DNA from: Myxococcota bacterium
GTDB taxonomy: Bacteria > Myxococcota_A > UBA9042 > PHBI01 > JAWLBL01
Assembly: GCA_041687695.1 (NCBI GenBank)
Contig: JAWLBL010000004.1
Span: 279,319 to 343,318, forward strand
DNA: 64,000 bases
Reading direction: 5' to 3'
Numbering within the stretch: position 1 is the stretch's first letter; each line of letters starts with the position of its first letter. Positions 58,901 to 64,000 of the stretch are shown piece by piece. The position numbers are program-made.

Positions 58901-61900
58901 CGGGCAACGCCGAGTTCGACCGCGAGCTGCGCGACCGCAACCGCGCCTTCGGCATCCGCGACCTCGACGAGGTCCGGCAGGTCGCGCAGGCGAGCGGGCT
59001 GCGCCTCGACGAGACGATCGCCATGCCCGCCAACAACCTGACGCTCGTGTTCCGCAGAGAGGGCGAGCCCGCGTAACCCCGCGGCCCGGAGCCCCCCGAT
59101 GCCCCAACCCACGCGCACCGCGCTGGCCGCGCTGGCGCTGGTCCATGCCGCCTGCGCCAGCTTCCCCGAGCGCGTCACCGACGAGCAGGCCCCCCTCGTG
59201 TGGGACCCGGCCTACCGCTCCGTCGACGAGGGCGAGCTGGTCGTCACCGGCGCCGCCACGGCCGCCGCCGGCATCGCCGCCCTGTTCCGCTCACGCAGCG
59301 CCCACTGGCGCGGCGGCGTGCTCTTCGACGACTGGGTCCGCGCCCAGGCGCGCACCGACGACCCCGCGACCCACGGCGGCACCGTGTTCACGGCCGACCT
59401 GCTCGCCGGCGTAGTCAGCGCCTATCCGCTGGTGGTCGACTCGCTGATCGTCGCCTGGTGGAAGGAGGACAGCCCCGAGGTCGCCTGGAACACCGCCGTC
59501 ATCACGGCCCAGTCGATGGCCCTGGCCGGCGCCGTCGCCGTCGGGCTGCAAGCGCTGACCCGCCGCGAGCAGCCCTGGGTGCGCCAGTGCCGCGCCGGCT
59601 TCGAGCCACCTGGGACCGACTGCGAGGACCCGCCGCTCGCCGACGCCTTCATCGGCTTCCAGGGGACCGTCGCGTTCGCCGCGGCCGGCGCGCTGTGCGC
59701 CCACCACGAGGCGACGCCCCTGTACGGCGGCGGCTCGCCCGATCGCTTCGTCTGCCTGGCCGCGCTGCTCGGCGCGACCCTCGCCAGCGGCCTCGAGCTC
59801 ATCCCGGACCGCAAATACGCGACCGACTTCCTGGCCGAGGCGGCCGTCGGCCTGGGGCTCGGCTACCTGCTCCCCTACCTGCTCTACTACGACACCCCGG
59901 CCGCCGCGGCGCAGCCGCCCACGGGCATGCTGGTGCCCCTGCCGATGGGCGACGGCGGCGGCGTGGGCTGGGTCCAGACTTTTTGAGCGGCGCCCCCGAA
60001 TGCGACCGCGCTTGCGGTCGTCTGCTGCCTTGCGCTAGTGGGTAGCGCACACGGAGGTGGCGAATGCGGGTGATGGCGCTTTCGGTGTTGGCGCTGGTGC
60101 TTGGGACGGGCTGCAGCGACGGCTTCGGCGGGCTGCTCATCTCGAACGCGCGCGAGGTGCAGATCGGCGAGGGCGTCGACCAGCAGATCGAGGCCGAGTA
60201 CCCGATCGTCGACGCCGCGGACCCGGTCGCGCAGTGGGCGGTGCAGTTCATCTCGCCCCTGGTGCAGGGCTCCCGGCCCTTCCGCGACCCCGACCTCATC
60301 GGCGGCTACAAGATCGAGATCATCGCCGACGACGAGCTGGTCAACGCCTTCGCGGCGCCGGGCGGCTTCACCTACATCACGACGGGCCTGCTGCTCGCCG
60401 CCGACACCTGCGCCGAGATCGCTGGCGTCATGGGCCACGAGCTGGCCCACGTGACCGAGCGCCACGGCGTCAAGGACATCGAGGCGGCCTTCGCGGCCGA
60501 GCAGCTCGCCTCCTTCTTCCTCGACGAGGGCCTCGCCCGCGACGGCGCCGTCGCCATCTGGGCGCTCCTCCAGAACACCACCTTCAGCCAGGACGACGAG
60601 AGCGAGAGCGACCTCGTCGGCCTCCAGATCGCCTTCAACGCCGGCTACAACCCCCACGGCCTCGCGGACTTCTTCGCCAAGCTCGCGGCCCTCGAGGCCG
60701 CCTCGGGCACCTTCCTGCCCGAGTTCCTCTCCTCGCACCCCTCCAGCCAGTCCCGCGTCACCGACGTCCGCGCCGAGATCCAGCGCCGCTACGGCGACCA
60801 GGTGGTCCAGGACCAGTCACAGTCCTACGACTGCCTCGGCACGGGCCTCACCCTCGAGCAGGTCAAGGCCCACATCCAGGGCGGCAACATGGTCATCCGC
60901 CCCGGCACGGGCACGGGCGTGGTGCCGGGCGAGACGCCCGAAGGGGAGCAGCCGCGGGAGGGGTGAGAGGGGTTGGGGAGAGGGGCTGGGGAGAGGGGAG
61001 AGGGTAGACCCGACCCGGCGTCGCCGACGCACCGCGAGAGGCGTGAGCCCCGCCGGACCGGGTCTGGAGCGTCAAGGGCTGGGGAGAGGGGCGAGGGTAG
61101 GAGCTGGGGAGAGGGCAGGCGCGGTAGCCTCCGCTTCGGCCGGCCTCAAGGGCTTTGTCCCCCTTGGCCGGCCTGGTCGGCCGGCCAATTCCTCGCGGAC
61201 GACAAAGCCCTTGACCCCGGCCTACGCTGCGGCTGGGTGGCCAATATCGGCCCGGAAGGGGGCCTTCCGGGCCGCTTCGCGTCCCGGCGCGGGAGTGGGC
61301 GGCGGGTGCTGGGGGAGGCGGCGGGTCGGGGGGCCCGTGAGCCAGTCGCAGGTAGTCGCGAAGTCTGGCCACAGGACGGGATTTAAACGCTTGTGTAATT
61401 AGTCGTCCCGGGCCGAAAGCGCGCAGGTCGCCGTTCCGGGGCGGAAGCAGGCAGGTCGTCGTCCCGGGGCGGAAGCAGGCAGGTCGTCGTCCCGGGGCGG
61501 AAGCAGGCAGGTCGTCGTCCCGGGGCGGAAGCGCGCAGGTCGTCGTCCCGGGGCGGAAGCGCGCGGATCGTTGTCCTGGGGCGAAAGCCGGTCGTCGTCC
61601 CGGGGCGGAAGCGGGCAGGTCGTCGTCCCCGGGCGGACGTCGGGGCGAAAATCGACATCCGGTCTCGACGAGGATGCAAATAGTTGTTGACGGATTTCGG
61701 GGAGACGTTTTGGGCGATCCAGGGTCGGCTGGAGGGAGGGCCTGGGAGGCCCCTGCCAGGCTCTACAGCGCGCTGATCAGGGGTGAGGGTCGTCGGAAGT
61801 CGTCCGAGAGGCCTGAACGGCCGTCCTGGGGGTACTCAGAGGGGATGAGAACCCCCGTGCTATGCTGCAGGCCTCGATTGGGAGGGGTGCGGCATGAGCA

Positions 61901-64000
61901 AGGGCTTGGAGTTGCTGGGGAAGTTGTCCGACGAGGGGCTGCTGGGGCGGGTCGGTGAGCTGGTCGATCTGGAGCGACGGACGACGGCCAACCTGGTCGT
62001 CCATCTGGCCGAGGTCGAGGCCAGGGAGCTTCACCTTCGCGACGGCAGCCCGTCGCTGTTCGAGTGGTGCCGGACGCGGTGGGGCTTTGGTGAGGACAAG
62101 GCCTACAACTACGTGAAGGCCGTCGGGTGGGTGCGGCGGTGGCCGCAGATGGGCGCCATGTTGGCCGATGGGCGGATCAGTTTGAGCGGGATGCGGGTCA
62201 TCGGGCCGCATCTGGGCGACGGGAACGTCGACGAGCGGCTGGCCGAGGCCGCCGGCAAGAGCAAGCGGGAGCTGGGCGAGCTGGTGGCCAGGTGGTCGCC
62301 GCGGCCGGATGTGCCGGCGCGGGTGTTCCGGTTGGCGCCGTCCCGGGGCGGAGCGCGTTCCGAGGCGCCGAAGCGGACCGCGTCGCCACAGGCCGAGACC
62401 GAGCTGACCCTGGAGCGCCCGAAGCCGCAGCATCGGGTCGAGCCGTTGTCGGAGGCGCGGTATCGCGTGCAGGTGACGGTCGGTGCGGGGGTGGCGGCGA
62501 AGCTCGAGGAGGCGATGGCGCTGGCGGGCCATCAGGTCGCGTCCGGGGACTATGAGACCTTGTTGGAGATGGCCCTGGACGTCTTCCTGGCCGCGAAGAA
62601 GAAGCAGCGCTTCGGAGTCGGGGCCAAGCGGCGAGTGAAGAAGGTCGTAGTGAAGGCGCCCGAGCCGGCCGAGAGCGTGGCCATGGCGGACCAGTTGGTC
62701 GAGGCCGCGGCGAGCGAGCCGGAGGCGGAGGTGACGGAACGCAGCCGGGCCATCCCGGCCGAGGTCAAGCGGGCCGTGGTCGAGCGGGACGGCCTGCGGT
62801 GCACCTACGAGGGCCCGGGAGGGCGGTGCACCGAGACGCGCCGGCTGGAGCTACATCACGAGGAGGCCTTCGCCAGGGGCGGCGCTCACTCGGTCGACAA
62901 CCTCCGGGTCGTCTGCCAGGCCCACAACCTGCTCGTCGCCCGCCAGGAGCTTGGGGCCCGGTTCGTCGCACGCAAAGTAGCCGAGCGGCGGGCGGGGGCC
63001 GTTCCGCCCCGGGACGAAAGCCCGCTCGGGCAAGCAGCTCGTGGGTGACCTCCGCCCCGGGACGACGACCTGCGCGCTTCCGCCCCGGGACGACGACCTG
63101 CGCGCTTCCGTCCCGGGACGACGACCTGCGCGCATCCGCCCCGGGACGACGACCTGCGCGCTTCCGCCCCGGGACGACGACCGGCTTCCGCCCCGGGACG
63201 ACGACCGGCGCGCTTCCGCCTCGGGACGACGACCGGCCTCCGCCCCGGGACGACGACCGGCTTTCGCCCGGGACGACGAACTGGGCTTCCGCCCCGGGAC
63301 GACGACCCGCTTCCGCCCCGGGACGACGACCTGCGCGCTTCCGCCCCGGGACGACGACCTGCGCGCTTCCGCCCCGGGACGACGACCTGGGCTCTCCGCC
63401 CCGGGACGACGACCTGGGCTCTCCGCCCCGGGACGACGACCTGGGCTCTCCGCCCCGGGGCGATTAATTGTTCGATCGTTAAATTACCTCCTGCTGCCAG
63501 CCTACGCGACCACGCCCGGCGGCTGGGATGCCCGACCACCCGCCCGCCTCAGCACCCGCCGCCCAGTGCCCGCGCCGGGACGCGAAGCGGCCCGGACGCC
63601 CCCGTCCGGGCCGATATCGGCCGCCCAGCCGCAGCGAAGGCCGGGGTCAAGGGCTTTCTCGTCCGCGAGGAATTGGCCGACCGCCAGGTCGGCCAAGGGG
63701 GAGAAAGCCCTTGAGGCCGGCCGAAGCGGAGGCTACCGCATGGCACCTTCTTCACCCCCATCCCCACCCCCATCCCCACCCCCATCCCCACCCCCATCCC
63801 CACCCCCATCCCCACCCCCATCCCCACCCCCATCCCCATCCCCACCCCCGTCCCCACCCAGCCCCCACCCCCCGTCCCCAACCGAGCCAAGCTCTCGGCC
63901 TCCCCCATCCCCACCCACCCCCCACACCCCAGCTCCCAACGAGCCACGCTCTCGGCCGACCCACCTCCCACCCCCACCCCCACCACCCACACCCCCGCTC

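What a model noticed while it worked through the whole genome (the two positions that open the first line are those of the whole stretch)
61123..63737. Twenty-two copies of a symmetric element: HNH nuclease gene between inverted arms of hairpin block, 21-nt repeat arrays [...]
A family of 22 paralogous genes (334-431 aa, 48-93% identical; helical N-terminal domain, disordered middle, C-terminal HNH) sits in a conserved non-coding frame. About 0.6-0.9 kb upstream lies a 175-nt block that folds into a multi-stem structure kept by compensatory changes, then up to 31 tandem copies of a 21-nt repeat (GTCGTCGTCCCGGGGCGGAAG, period 24-28 nt), then a promoter-like 250-nt leader. In complete copies (e.g. 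C4:340441-343055) the repeat array and the block recur downstream in inverted orientation, with G-rich tracts outside both ends. Two gene-less 0.9-1.0 kb derivatives keep only the two inverted blocks. Boldest reading: this is a new kind of DNA transposon whose only protein [...]
Evidence so far: All-vs-all blastp gives a single-linkage family of 22. Of 17 copies not cut by a contig end, 15 have a gene-free 0.9-1.9 kb stretch upstream. DNA is conserved among up to 21 copies from about -1000 to +50 past the stop. Upstream there is no codon-position G+C periodicity, against about 90-98% third-position G+C in the gene. nhmmer with the block finds 43 copies at E<1e-12. One lies upstream on the gene's strand for 19 of 22 genes; the other 3 are cut by contig ends. 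An inverted one lies 0.1-0.55 kb downstream of 7 genes (g01149, g01445, g02564, g04110, g05145, g04553, g05059). Gene-less inverted pairs stand at C7:201564-202475 and C27:85544-86548, and a cluster of four stands at C3:293-295 k [...]
(Added by a program. Inside this text positions count along the whole contig: contig position 279,319 is position 1 of the stretch shown here. "Call 12" and the like, gene names such as g00115 and contig names such as C1 are that model's own, and its searches are not shown. The text may have been shortened before it was handed on; [...] marks where a part breaks off. The agent that wrote the report below was given it as the finding of a first reader that could run no searches.)

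Follow-up and report, generated by a model that had tools for sequence, protein, structure and literature searches.

The report
Selfish HNH nuclease gene with structured ends
This is one of 22 scattered copies of a small selfish-looking DNA element that carries a single DNA-cutting enzyme gene framed by rows of that enzyme's likely binding sites and by hairpin-forming inverted ends; the design is undescribed, but that it jumps like a transposon is not shown.

Summary
Window 61123-63737 is a 2,615-bp symmetric element: a 178-bp hairpin block, an AT-rich motif, an array of 21-nt units, a conserved 256-nt leader and a 384-aa gene. The array, motif and block then recur inverted. The genome has 22 gene copies and about 45 blocks.

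New here:
- The protein models as a homodimer of a ParB/KorB-like helix-turn-helix domain, an RHH-like domain and an intact HNH domain.
- The array units are amplified copies of a 16-20-bp CCCGGG-core palindrome.
- In a distant genome (G224) a single palindrome sits about 280 nt upstream in 9 of 10 copies, and a second one near the stop in 5 of 10. G000's arrays occupy the same two positions.
- The hairpin block is a lineage-specific addition. It lies outside the sites here, inside them in G011, and is absent in G224.

The family is large (10,600 clusters), patchy and multicopy, and non-syntenic within one genus.

Best reading (0.5): a selfish nuclease-gene cassette whose dimer binds its flanking sites.

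"New DNA transposon" is only partly supported. I found no target-site duplication and no empty site, and the copies are old (dS at least 0.16) and under purifying selection.

This scan noted related DUF222-HNH genes framed by inverted hairpin repeats in other phyla.

The parts
60956..61122 (+). Left outer G-rich tract: variable short tandem repeats that begin at the stop codon of the neighbouring gene (ORF 60064-60966).
   Evidence: TRF rows at 60956-61008. Sequence read. Skew statistics over 40 block flanks.
61123..61300 (+). Left terminal block. Its outer boundary is GGTAGCC. It holds a branched (T-shaped) hairpin at about 61138-61222 and a second hairpin at 61249-61273.
   Evidence: About 45 copies in the genome. 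Sharp boundary. DNA fold z = -6.1. Covariation with controls.
61382..61402 (+). AT-rich motif (TTTAAACGCTTGTGTAATTAG) between the block and the first array unit.
   Evidence: Read. The motif recurs, inverted, at the block-side end of the downstream arrays of other copies.
61402..61637 (+). Left array: 8.6 units of GTCGTCCCGGGGCGGAAG plus spacer, period 28. It ends about 254 nt before the start codon.
   Evidence: TRF. Unit consensus per copy. All 77 exact units in the genome lie in or near elements.
61638..61893 (+). Leader, conserved in 21 aligned copies. It holds a TTGACG box (61687-61692), TGCTATGCT (an extended -10-like motif, 61858-61866) and GGGAGG before the ATG.
   Evidence: Alignment of 21 copies. 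The same TTGACA box is seen in G224. The consensus promoter scan found none. The alifold structure is weak.
61894..63048 (+). Gene for a 384-aa protein: N-terminal helical ParB/KorB-like helix-turn-helix domain (about residues 26-138), a disordered linker, an RHH-like beta-alpha-alpha part (about 180-240), and HNH (about 280-354).
   Evidence: ORF. AF2 mean pLDDT 85.8. Fold matches with Z 6-7.6. HNH residues kept in 22 of 22 copies. Homodimer model.
63001..63020 (.). Near-palindromic site GTTCCGCCCCGGGACGAAAG inside the last codons of the gene.
   Evidence: 16 of 22 copies have such a site within -92 to +50 nt of the stop. In G224 it lies in the same place.
63051..63463 (-). Right array: 15.5 units, the same unit as the left array, in inverted orientation, starting at the stop codon.
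   Evidence: TRF. Unit consensus upstream versus downstream.
63463..63487 (-). AT-rich motif, the inverted counterpart of 61382-61402.
   Evidence: Read.
63561..63737 (-). Right terminal block, the inverted copy of the left block (92.7% identical).
   Evidence: C4:343055-342879.
63738..64000 (-). Right outer tract. It is G-rich on the minus strand (CACCCCCATCCC x10 on plus) and runs into the contig end.
   Evidence: TRF at 63753-63872. GC skew of -0.64 to -0.79. Flank skew +0.92 on the inward-reading strand.

Best explanation
The element is a selfish, IS-like cassette built around one site-specific HNH nuclease.

Shown:
- The protein is modelled as a homodimer. Each chain has a ParB/KorB-like helix-turn-helix domain, an RHH-like pairing strand and an intact HNH site.
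- The gene is framed on both sides by a 16-20-bp CCCGGG-core palindrome. One lies about 250-290 nt upstream, next to a conserved TTGACA/G box. The other lies at the stop codon.
- In this genome those two sites have been amplified into arrays of 4-33 units and capped with an AT-rich motif and a 178-bp hairpin block in inverted orientation.

Inferred:
- The dimer binds these sites. That would set its own expression through the upstream site and bring the two ends together.
- The HNH domain then nicks or cuts at or near the ends, or at the extruded hairpins. Host recombination or repair copies the cassette to new places or back into gene-less block-array pairs. This is homing-like or ectopic copying, not classical strand transfer.
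- The arrays and blocks would lengthen the homology and the protein-binding platform at the ends.
- The variable G-rich minisatellites and the partial duplications of the block terminus are by-products of polymerase stalling and slippage at the hairpin.
For: Repeat nature:
- 22 gene copies and about 45 blocks have a sharp outer boundary and unrelated flanks.
- Gene-less block-array pairs exist.

Protein:
- AF2 mean pLDDT is 85.8.
- Residues 26-138 align to ParB, KorB and Spo0J DNA-binding domains (Z 6.0-7.0). HNH matches reach Z 7.6. Part of residues 187-249 aligns to RHH proteins (Z 4.1-4.9).
- R298, C303, C312, H321, H322, N336, C341, H344 and N345 are kept in 22 of 22 copies.
- Homodimer model: score 0.74, best of 3 controls 0.00. 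That mark was reached by 20 of 30 proteins solved as pairs of one chain and by 1 of 23 solved as single chains. The runs agree in at least 50% of contacts and the partner's pLDDT is at least 67. The interface is helix 13-46 plus the strand 190-197 paired with itself.

Sites:
- Upstream and downstream arrays of one copy share one unit type. 15 copies use GTCGTCCCGGGGCGGAAG and the 7 most divergent use the perfect palindrome GTCGTCCCGGGACGAC.
- Exact sites are almost confined to the elements: 32 of 33, 15 of 15 and 77 of 77 for the three site types counted.
- In G224, 9 of 10 copies have a perfect 16-bp palindrome at -248 to -293. 5 of 10 have a second one near the stop: identical in 2, one mismatch in 2, a different palindrome in 1. 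Five different palindromes occur among the copies.
- Pairwise DNA homology of L025 with the other G224 copies never runs more than 4 nt past the outer edge of the upstream palindrome.
- Of the 10 genomic occurrences of two of those palindromes, 8 lie at cassettes and 2 stand alone.

Selection and spread:
- dN/dS is 0.17-0.53 in the 25 closest pairs.
- 17 of 201 sampled genomes of the phylum carry the family. Several carry 8-11 matches each.
- Five species of one genus carry it at non-syntenic places. In G055 it sits at a synteny break.

Hairpins: kept by covariation, with no excess of G-T over A-C cells (13 against 8). That fits DNA of either strand rather than one RNA.
Against: - No target-site duplication, no exact cleavage site and no empty or filled pair of sites was found.
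- The closest copies differ by dS 0.16, so there is no sign of recent movement.
- At such ages, the end of homology may mark the end of constraint and not the end of a mobile unit, especially in G224.
- An upstream palindrome next to a promoter-like box is also what a plain autoregulatory operator would look like.
- The fold matches are of middling Z (6-7.6), a range that the tool's own note says can arise from a common arrangement.
- Binding of the protein to the sites, and any cleavage, are inferred.
- The block lies outside the sites here, inside them in G011 and is absent in G224, so its role is unclear.
- 14 of 21 copies lack the right-hand block.
- The family was not found on plasmids or phages.
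Confidence: 0.5

Rival explanations
1. A true DNA transposon of a new class. The HNH dimer is the transposase. It binds the subterminal arrays, cuts at the hairpin or cruciform blocks and itself joins the excised or copied element to a new target.
For: - Long inverted ends with subterminal repeat arrays and gene-less derivatives.
- A sharp GGTAGCC boundary.
- Hairpins under selection.
- Partial direct duplications of block nt 1 to 28-64 just outside 6-7 of 40 ends, and inward-reading G-rich tracts on both sides. These could be scars of synthesis primed from the flank.
- My literature searches found no paper that describes an HNH enzyme as a transposase, so this would be new. 'HNH transposase' gave 0 papers. 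The 20 papers holding HNH, insertion sequence, terminal inverted repeats and transposase concern other systems, judged from their titles and abstracts.
Against: - No target-site duplication.
- No HNH enzyme is known to carry out strand transfer (recalled knowledge).
- The left end is always present but the right block is missing in 14 of 21 copies.
- The block is absent in G224 and lies inside the sites in G011.
- The copies are old and under purifying selection.
Confidence: 0.15
2. Not mobile now. This would be an old paralogous family of autoregulated DNA-binding nucleases with a cellular role such as repair, defence or competition. The palindromes are operators that loop the gene. The blocks and arrays are REP-like hairpin and minisatellite DNA that accumulates in intergenic space and acts as an insulator or terminator.
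For: - Purifying selection on nearly all copies, and no near-identical pair.
- The upstream palindrome lies 45-60 nt before a conserved TTGACA/G box preceded by an A-rich stretch.
- This genome is rich in other hairpin repeats and minisatellites, some directly next to the elements.
- Two earlier notes of this scan on other genomes concluded that the HNH genes had landed among independent repeats.
Against: - The blocks here are nearly all tied to the gene at a fixed layout, and the site sequences are almost confined to the elements.
- Flanks are unrelated even for the closest pairs.
- The distribution is patchy, with independent multicopy expansions and non-syntenic positions within a genus.
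- Gene-less inverted pairs keep the same architecture.
Confidence: 0.2
3. The block or leader is an RNA partner (guide-like, as in IscB and its omega RNA) of an RNA-dependent HNH nuclease.
For: - The HNH region gives a weak match to the NCBIfam IscB model (30 bits, E 2.8e-7).
- The block is structured and covaries.
- The leader is more conserved than much of the gene.
Against: - The IscB match covers only the HNH part and is far below the cut-off of 175 bits.
- The protein instead has a helix-turn-helix domain and palindromic DNA sites.
- The block occurs in both orientations around the gene, and the alignment shows no strand bias between G-T and A-C cells.
- Rfam gives only two chance-level microRNA matches.
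- The leader has a weak consensus fold.
Confidence: 0.05

Closest known systems
REP13E12 / DUF222-HNH '13E12 repeat' genes of Mycobacterium tuberculosis and other Actinobacteria
   Same: A repeat of about 1.4 kb carrying one gene, with a helical N-terminal domain and a C-terminal HNH domain, present in several copies per genome, mechanism unknown. PMC10589994 lists it among repetitive elements (passages read). The size and copy number of REP13E12 are recalled, not from a call.
   Different: The proteins here fall below Pfam's DUF222 threshold: none of the 117 scanned is listed at or above 24.4 bits, and 11 give sub-threshold matches. The flanking palindromes, their arrays and the hairpin ends are not part of what I could find described for REP13E12. 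I compared no REP13E12 DNA here.
REP/REPIN elements with their RAYT genes (REPtrons)
   Same: A nuclease gene framed by inverted hairpin repeats, with gene-less inverted doublets and hairpins kept by compensatory change.
   Different: RAYT is a HUH tyrosine transposase, usually present once with very many REPINs (recalled). Here the nuclease is HNH with a helix-turn-helix domain, and there are 22 genes but only a few gene-less pairs.
ParB/KorB/SopB centromere and operator systems (parS, OB, sopC)
   Same: The fold of the DNA-binding domain. 13-16-bp palindromic sites, and tandem arrays of sites as in sopC (recalled).
   Different: No ParB N-terminal CTPase-type domain was seen. The protein is fused to a nuclease. 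The sites frame the protein's own gene.
Free-standing HNH homing endonuclease genes of phages and introns
   Same: A selfish gene made of a DNA-binding module plus HNH, which could spread through a break and host repair.
   Different: Those sit at one allele-specific site (recalled). This one is multicopy, carries its own flanking sites and has structured inverted ends. It was not found in the phage collection.
IS200/IS605-type elements with IscB or TnpB (OMEGA systems)
   Same: Structured element ends. The HNH domain is similar to IscB's.
   Different: No RuvC domain, no evidence of an omega RNA, and symmetric inverted ends instead of asymmetric subterminal hairpins.

Membership tests
HNH (His-Me finger) nucleases, Pfam PF01844 | A beta-beta-alpha metal finger with the catalytic His, the Asn and the Cys/His zinc ligands | tested here: met
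   The window protein scores 18.2 bits against a cut-off of 21.4, so it misses the cut-off by sequence score. 52 of 77 family members match at E <= 0.01. The fold matches HNH enzymes at Z up to 7.6. R, C, C, HH, N, C, H and N are kept in 22 of 22 copies.
DUF222 (Pfam PF02720), the N-terminal domain of 13E12-type proteins | A match to the family model at or above the gathering score (24.4 bits) | tested here: not met
   None of the 117 proteins scanned is listed at or above the cut-off. 7 of 77 (best E 3.2e-4) and 4 of 40 (16.1-23.5 bits, covering only profile positions 2-107 of 306) give sub-threshold matches. This points to a distant relative, not a member by Pfam's rule.
Bacterial insertion sequence / DNA transposon | Terminal inverted repeats and many dispersed copies with unrelated flanks | tested here: met
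Bacterial insertion sequence / DNA transposon | Target-site duplication, or another defined insertion footprint | tested here: not met
   None seen at five complete copies and one gene-less pair. The flanks are variable G-rich tracts.
Bacterial insertion sequence / DNA transposon | A transposase of a known catalytic class (DDE, HUH, serine, tyrosine, Cas1) | tested here: not met
   The only ORF product matches HNH and DNA-binding folds.
Bacterial insertion sequence / DNA transposon | Filled and empty sites among close relatives | tested here: inconclusive
   No genome of the same family is held. The exact block motif is absent from two collections. In another genus the gene is non-syntenic in 5 of 5 species, but no clean empty site was obtained.
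IscB / OMEGA RNA-guided nucleases | A split RuvC domain with inserted HNH, and an omega RNA | tested here: not met
   NCBIfam guided_IscB scores 30 bits against a cut-off of 175, over the HNH part only. There is no Rfam match.
REPtron (REP plus RAYT) | A HUH Y1 transposase next to REP hairpins | tested here: not met
   No HUH domain. The gene product is an HNH protein.
ParB/KorB family | A helix-turn-helix DNA-binding domain that recognises palindromic sites | tested here: inconclusive
   Fold matches with Z 6.0-7.0 over residues 26-138. Palindromic sites flank the gene. Binding was not tested.
ParB/KorB family | An N-terminal ParB/Srx-type CTP-binding domain | tested here: inconclusive
   No such match appeared in the Pfam scan or in the fold lists. 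Absence from a list does not exclude it.

The most novel reading that the evidence does not exclude
The HNH dimer is the sole recombinase of a new class of DNA transposon. It would load on the terminal palindrome arrays and cut the extruded T-shaped hairpins, giving structured or hairpin ends. The element would then be copied into new sites by DNA synthesis primed from the broken target. That synthesis would leave the inward-reading G-rich minisatellites and the aborted copies of the first 28-64 nt of the block as footprints. The large family of palindrome-framed HNH genes in Myxococcota, Bdellovibrionota, Acidobacteriota and (as DUF222-HNH) Actinobacteria would then be one unrecognised superfamily of mobile elements.
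Probability: 0.15. Interest if true: 0.9.

Novelty: new variant of a known kind. Interest (0 to 1): 0.64.

Why it matters
Multicopy HNH genes of the DUF222/13E12 type have been known as repeats since the M. tuberculosis genome, but nobody has explained how they spread.

This genome gives an unusually elaborate version of such an element. Comparison with other genera yields a simple common plan: one dimeric helix-turn-helix/HNH protein whose gene is framed by its own palindromic sites. That plan is directly testable by binding, cutting and marked mini-element assays.

The family is large: 10,600 clusters at 50% identity with E <= 1e-30. Its N-terminal domain reaches no Pfam or NCBIfam family threshold in my scans.

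If the nuclease really mobilises the cassette, this would be a mobile-element class with a catalytic domain not used by any known transposase. It would also be a source of long-site-specific nucleases.

If it does not, the family is still a widespread unexplained gene family with a conserved cis-architecture.

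Tried and rejected
- Scans for the exact block motif found nothing: genome contigs with a 25-mer and metagenome contigs with two degenerate positions. No cross-genome empty site for this genome could therefore be looked for.
- The search for related loci with alignment A1 failed because the alignment has no conserved stretch. I used the genome search instead.
- No genome of the same family or genus is held. G011's genus holds only G011.
- BLAST of 500-nt outer flanks against the genome, to look for paralogous empty sites, was swamped by an abundant REPIN-like repeat and gave no empty site.
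- Rfam gave only two chance-level microRNA rows, E 0.43 and 0.55.
- The sigma-70 consensus scan found no promoter.
- The leader gave only a weak consensus fold, -15.9.
- Foldseek against the PDB gave no match with E <= 0.001. PDB sequence search gave one chance row.
- No tblastn match in plasmids or phages at E <= 1e-6.
- tblastx of the flanks in genus g56 gave only short low-identity noise.
- Flip/flop inversion of the hairpin, as in parvovirus ends, was considered and rejected. The paired changes are single compensatory swaps, not reverse-complemented segments.
- The idea that the palindromes are duplicated target sites was considered. It is weakened because the sites are nearly confined to the cassettes, but the two solitary sites in G224 keep it open.
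- G-rich flanks as a family feature was rejected: the G224 cassettes show no such skew.

Full report
OBSERVATION

The window is G000:C4:279319-343318 of a 7.97-Mb, 63-contig assembly.

- The ORF 61894-63048 (+) encodes 384 aa.
- tblastn finds 22 copies at 54-100% identity on 16 contigs.
- The 178-nt block at 61123-61300 recurs inverted at 63561-63737 (92.7% identical). It gives 52 blastn HSPs, about 45 distinct blocks, many at contig ends.
- TRF finds an array of 8.6 units (period 28) at 61402-61637 and an inverted one of 15.5 units at 63051-63463.
- An upstream block on the gene's strand is present in 19 of 22 genes; the other 3 are cut by contig ends. A downstream inverted block is present in 7. 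One further downstream side is cut, so 14 of 21 lack it.
- Gene-less inverted pairs (C7, C27), a cluster in C3 and a tandem pair in C47 are confirmed.

ANATOMY OF THE WINDOW COPY

Reading left to right, the copy holds:
1. A G-rich tract, 60956-61122.
2. The block, 61123-61300.
3. An AT-rich motif, TTTAAACGCTTGTGTAATTAG, 61382-61402.
4. The left array, which ends 254 nt before the ATG.
5. The leader.
6. The gene.
7. The right array, which starts at the stop codon.
8. The inverted AT-rich motif, about 63463-63487.
9. The inverted block.
10. A C-rich tract that runs to the contig end.

The AT-rich motif recurs at the block side of the downstream arrays of other copies.

The leader is strikingly conserved in all 21 aligned copies, including the most divergent ones. 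Conserved pieces include:
- TTGTTGACGG at about -215.
- CTGATCAGGG.
- GGCCTGAACGGCCGTCCAGGGG.
- TGCTATGCT at about -40.
- GGGAGG before the ATG.

A consensus sigma-70 scan finds nothing, and the leader has only a weak consensus fold.

THE PROTEIN

- Pfam gives only a sub-threshold HNH match (18.2 bits against 21.4).
- NCBIfam gives a weak match of the HNH part to IscB (30 bits against 175).
- With a 77-sequence alignment, AlphaFold2 gives mean pLDDT 85.8. The model has a helical domain (residues 1-134), a disordered linker, two short strands and two helices (180-240), a second linker, and HNH (289-368).
- Structural search without Foldseek aligns residues 26-138 to the DNA-binding domains of ParB, KorB, Spo0J and SopB (Z 6.0-7.0 for the first three, 4.6 for SopB). 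It aligns 280-354 to HNH enzymes (Z up to 7.6) and part of 187-249 to RHH proteins (Z 4.1-4.9). By the tool's own note these are middling scores.
- All 22 copies keep R298, C303, C312, H321, H322, N336, C341, H344 and N345.
- A two-copy model passes the test. The score is 0.74 and the best of 3 controls is 0.00. That mark was reached by 20 of 30 proteins solved as pairs of one chain and by 1 of 23 solved as single chains. The runs agree in at least 50% of contacts and the partner's pLDDT is at least 67.
- The interface is the long helix 13-46 plus strand 190-197 paired with its twin, as in RHH dimers. The model supports a dimer; it does not show one.

THE REPEAT UNITS ARE PROTEIN-SITE-LIKE PALINDROMES, AND THEIR POSITIONS ARE CONSERVED ACROSS GENERA

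Within this genome:
- The 7 most divergent copies use the perfect 16-bp palindrome GTCGTCCCGGGACGAC. The other 15 use GTCGTCCCGGGGCGGAAG.
- Upstream and downstream arrays of one copy share one unit type.
- 16 of 22 copies have a palindromic site within -92 to +50 nt of the stop. This includes copies that have no downstream array or block. In most of the 15 copies that use the second unit the site is of the type TTCCGCCCCGGGGCGGAA.
- Exact sites are almost confined to the elements: 32 of 33, 15 of 15 and 77 of 77.

In G224 (same phylum, 3 contigs):
- Ten copies share only about 1.2-1.4 kb of homology and have no long inverted repeats.
- 9 of 10 have a perfect 16-bp CCCGGG-core palindrome at -248 to -293.
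- 5 of 10 have a second palindrome near the stop: identical to the upstream one in 2 copies, one mismatch in 2, a different palindrome in 1. Five different palindromes occur among the copies.
- The homology of L025 with the other copies never runs more than 4 nt past the outer edge of the upstream palindrome.
- The upstream palindrome is followed by an A-rich stretch and a TTGACA box that corresponds to the TTGACG box of the window's leader.
- Of the 10 genomic occurrences of two of these palindromes, 8 are at cassettes and 2 stand alone.

The two array positions in the window (ending at -254, starting at the stop) are thus the two single-site positions of the simpler relatives. The arrays are amplified sites.

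In G011 (same order, another family):
- Nine copies of about 2.05 kb, 77-82% identical to one another, carry about 270-bp hairpin-rich inverted repeats.
- There the palindromes (ACAGTCCCCGGGGACTGT, with an AT-rich motif) lie outside the hairpin module.

The hairpin block is therefore an accessory whose place differs between lineages.

THE BLOCK

- As single-stranded DNA the region folds far better than shuffles (z = -6.1).
- On 34 full copies the consensus has 50 pairs: a long stem that starts 4 nt from the terminus, a 10-bp arm, a 3-bp arm and a second hairpin.
- 98.5% of cells pair. 12 pairs changed on both sides, against 4.3 +/- 1.2 in shuffles (0 of 500 shuffles reach it) and 2-3 when the partners are slid.
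- G-T cells (13) do not outnumber A-C cells (8). The structure is thus equally good on either strand, which fits DNA (a cruciform or single strands) better than one RNA.

THE FLANKS

- Outside the block, homology stops at GGTAGCC.
- The 100 nt outside are G-rich on the inward-reading strand in 39 of 40 ends. 22 of 40 have skew above 0.3, against 3.2% of random windows; 11 of 40 are above 0.5, against 0.065%.
- The tracts are different short tandem repeats at each end. In 6-7 ends they include direct partial copies of block nt 1 to 28-64.
- G224 cassettes have no such skew. This feature therefore goes with the block, not with the family.
- I read it as slippage at a strong hairpin. A footprint of flank-primed synthesis is the bolder alternative.

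EVOLUTION AND SPREAD

- Among the 25 closest of the 231 paralogue pairs, dN/dS is 0.17-0.53 and the lowest dS is 0.16. The median dN/dS over all 231 pairs is 0.39.
- 20 of 22 tblastn matches begin at an ATG. One copy (C2:133581) lacks the first 71 residues.
- The copies are thus old and kept functional. That is unlike a recent IS burst.
- The profile of the family finds 10,600 clusters (50% identity) at E <= 1e-30 and 22,267 at E <= 1e-10.
- Look-alike clusters come mostly from Myxococcota, Acidobacteriota and Bdellovibrionota.
- In a sample of 201 genomes of the phylum, 17 carry the family at E <= 1e-20 (a floor). G224, G069, G154, G193 and G217 have 8-11 matches each, and the five genomes of genus g56 have 1-2.
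- In those five, only the gene is alignable between the loci. The flanks of the G055 copy have orthologues elsewhere in the congeners. Three congeners run colinear through the point where G055 breaks off next to the gene.
- No match was found in the plasmid or phage collections.

INTERPRETATION

Most likely (0.5) this is a selfish cassette whose dimeric helix-turn-helix/RHH/HNH protein binds the palindromes that frame its gene. The upstream site probably doubles as an operator. The two ends, here enlarged into arrays and hairpin blocks, are the substrates on which the nuclease acts, so that host repair copies or moves the cassette.

Shown:
- The architecture and its conservation.
- The confinement of the sites to the elements.
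- The modelled dimer and the intact active site.
- The dispersal of the copies.

Inferred:
- Binding.
- Cutting.
- Any movement.

Rivals:
- A true HNH transposon (0.15).
- An immobile autoregulated paralogue family sitting among REP-like DNA (0.2).
- An RNA-guided system (0.05).

KNOWN THINGS

The closest named kind is the REP13E12 / DUF222-HNH repeat family.
- PMC10589994 mentions it among repetitive elements and cites Gordon et al. 1999 (passages read).
- 22 papers hold the word REP13E12 (listing seen only).
- 5 papers hold both DUF222 and HNH (listing seen only).
- The phrase 'HNH transposase' occurs in 0 papers.
- '13E12 repeat' together with 'HNH endonuclease' occurs in 0 papers.
- The 20 papers that hold HNH, insertion sequence, terminal inverted repeats and transposase concern casposons, ISC/IscB, Kolobok and others, judged from their titles and abstracts.
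- The library lacks most subscription journals, so absence from it is not proof.

This scan has itself noted DUF222-HNH genes framed by inverted hairpin repeats in Acidimicrobiia, Plantibacter and Bdellovibrio-like bacteria, with divided verdicts. One of those notes mentions a pair of identical palindromic sites. I confirmed that feature independently in G224 and here.

LIMITS

- No close relative of this genome was available.
- The fold matches are middling.
- With copies this old, the ends of homology may reflect constraint rather than termini.
- Supplementary files were not consulted.

Noticed in passing
G000:C3:116755-117250 (flank of an element); G000:C1:171037-171229 (inside a right array); outside the window: An abundant hairpin repeat with CTTG/CAAG loops, often tandem with units of about 230 bp, lies next to or inside some HNH elements and has dozens of copies genome-wide.
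   Followed up: partly
G000:C8 about 246450-246560 and G000:C6 about 297700-297800 (downstream of two HNH copies): A further shared hairpin motif (GGAAAGTGCGGCC..GGGCCGCAC..CTCCGAAAGCGG...) follows two different HNH genes. It may be a third repeat family.
   Followed up: no
window 63753-63872: CACCCCCATCCC repeated about 10 times, followed by related C-rich 57-nt repeats up to the contig end. The assembly breaks inside this tract.
   Followed up: no
L039:2482-2497 and L040:2515-2530 (G224:C2): Two solitary copies of the cassette palindrome CTGCCCCCGGGGGCAG with no HNH gene nearby. One shares about 20 further nt with a cassette end. They could be footprints of lost cassettes or unoccupied sites.
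   Followed up: partly
L020:5918-7100 (G055:C13) against L035, L036 and L038: The single HNH gene of G055 lies exactly where colinearity with three congeners ends. The DNA on its other side maps to other contigs in those genomes, so this is a rearrangement breakpoint at the nuclease gene.
   Followed up: partly
alignment A2 columns 115-130 (L055, L060, L074): Three blocks (C1:454980, C22:27554, C26:96145) share a 16-nt insertion (GCACAAAGCGGGGCTC-like) between the two hairpins, with changed neighbouring bases. This is a block sub-variant.
   Followed up: no
G000:C49:27950-28243: A contig end holds a G-rich minisatellite, an AT-rich motif, one perfect GTCGTCCCGGGACGAC site and then a (GCGCGGGGG)n repeat, with no block. 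It is probably another partly assembled element.
   Followed up: no
window 60064-60966 (+): The neighbouring ORF contains an HELAH motif of the HExxH type and a lipoprotein-like N-terminus. It may be a metallopeptidase. Its stop codon abuts the element's G-rich tract.
   Followed up: no
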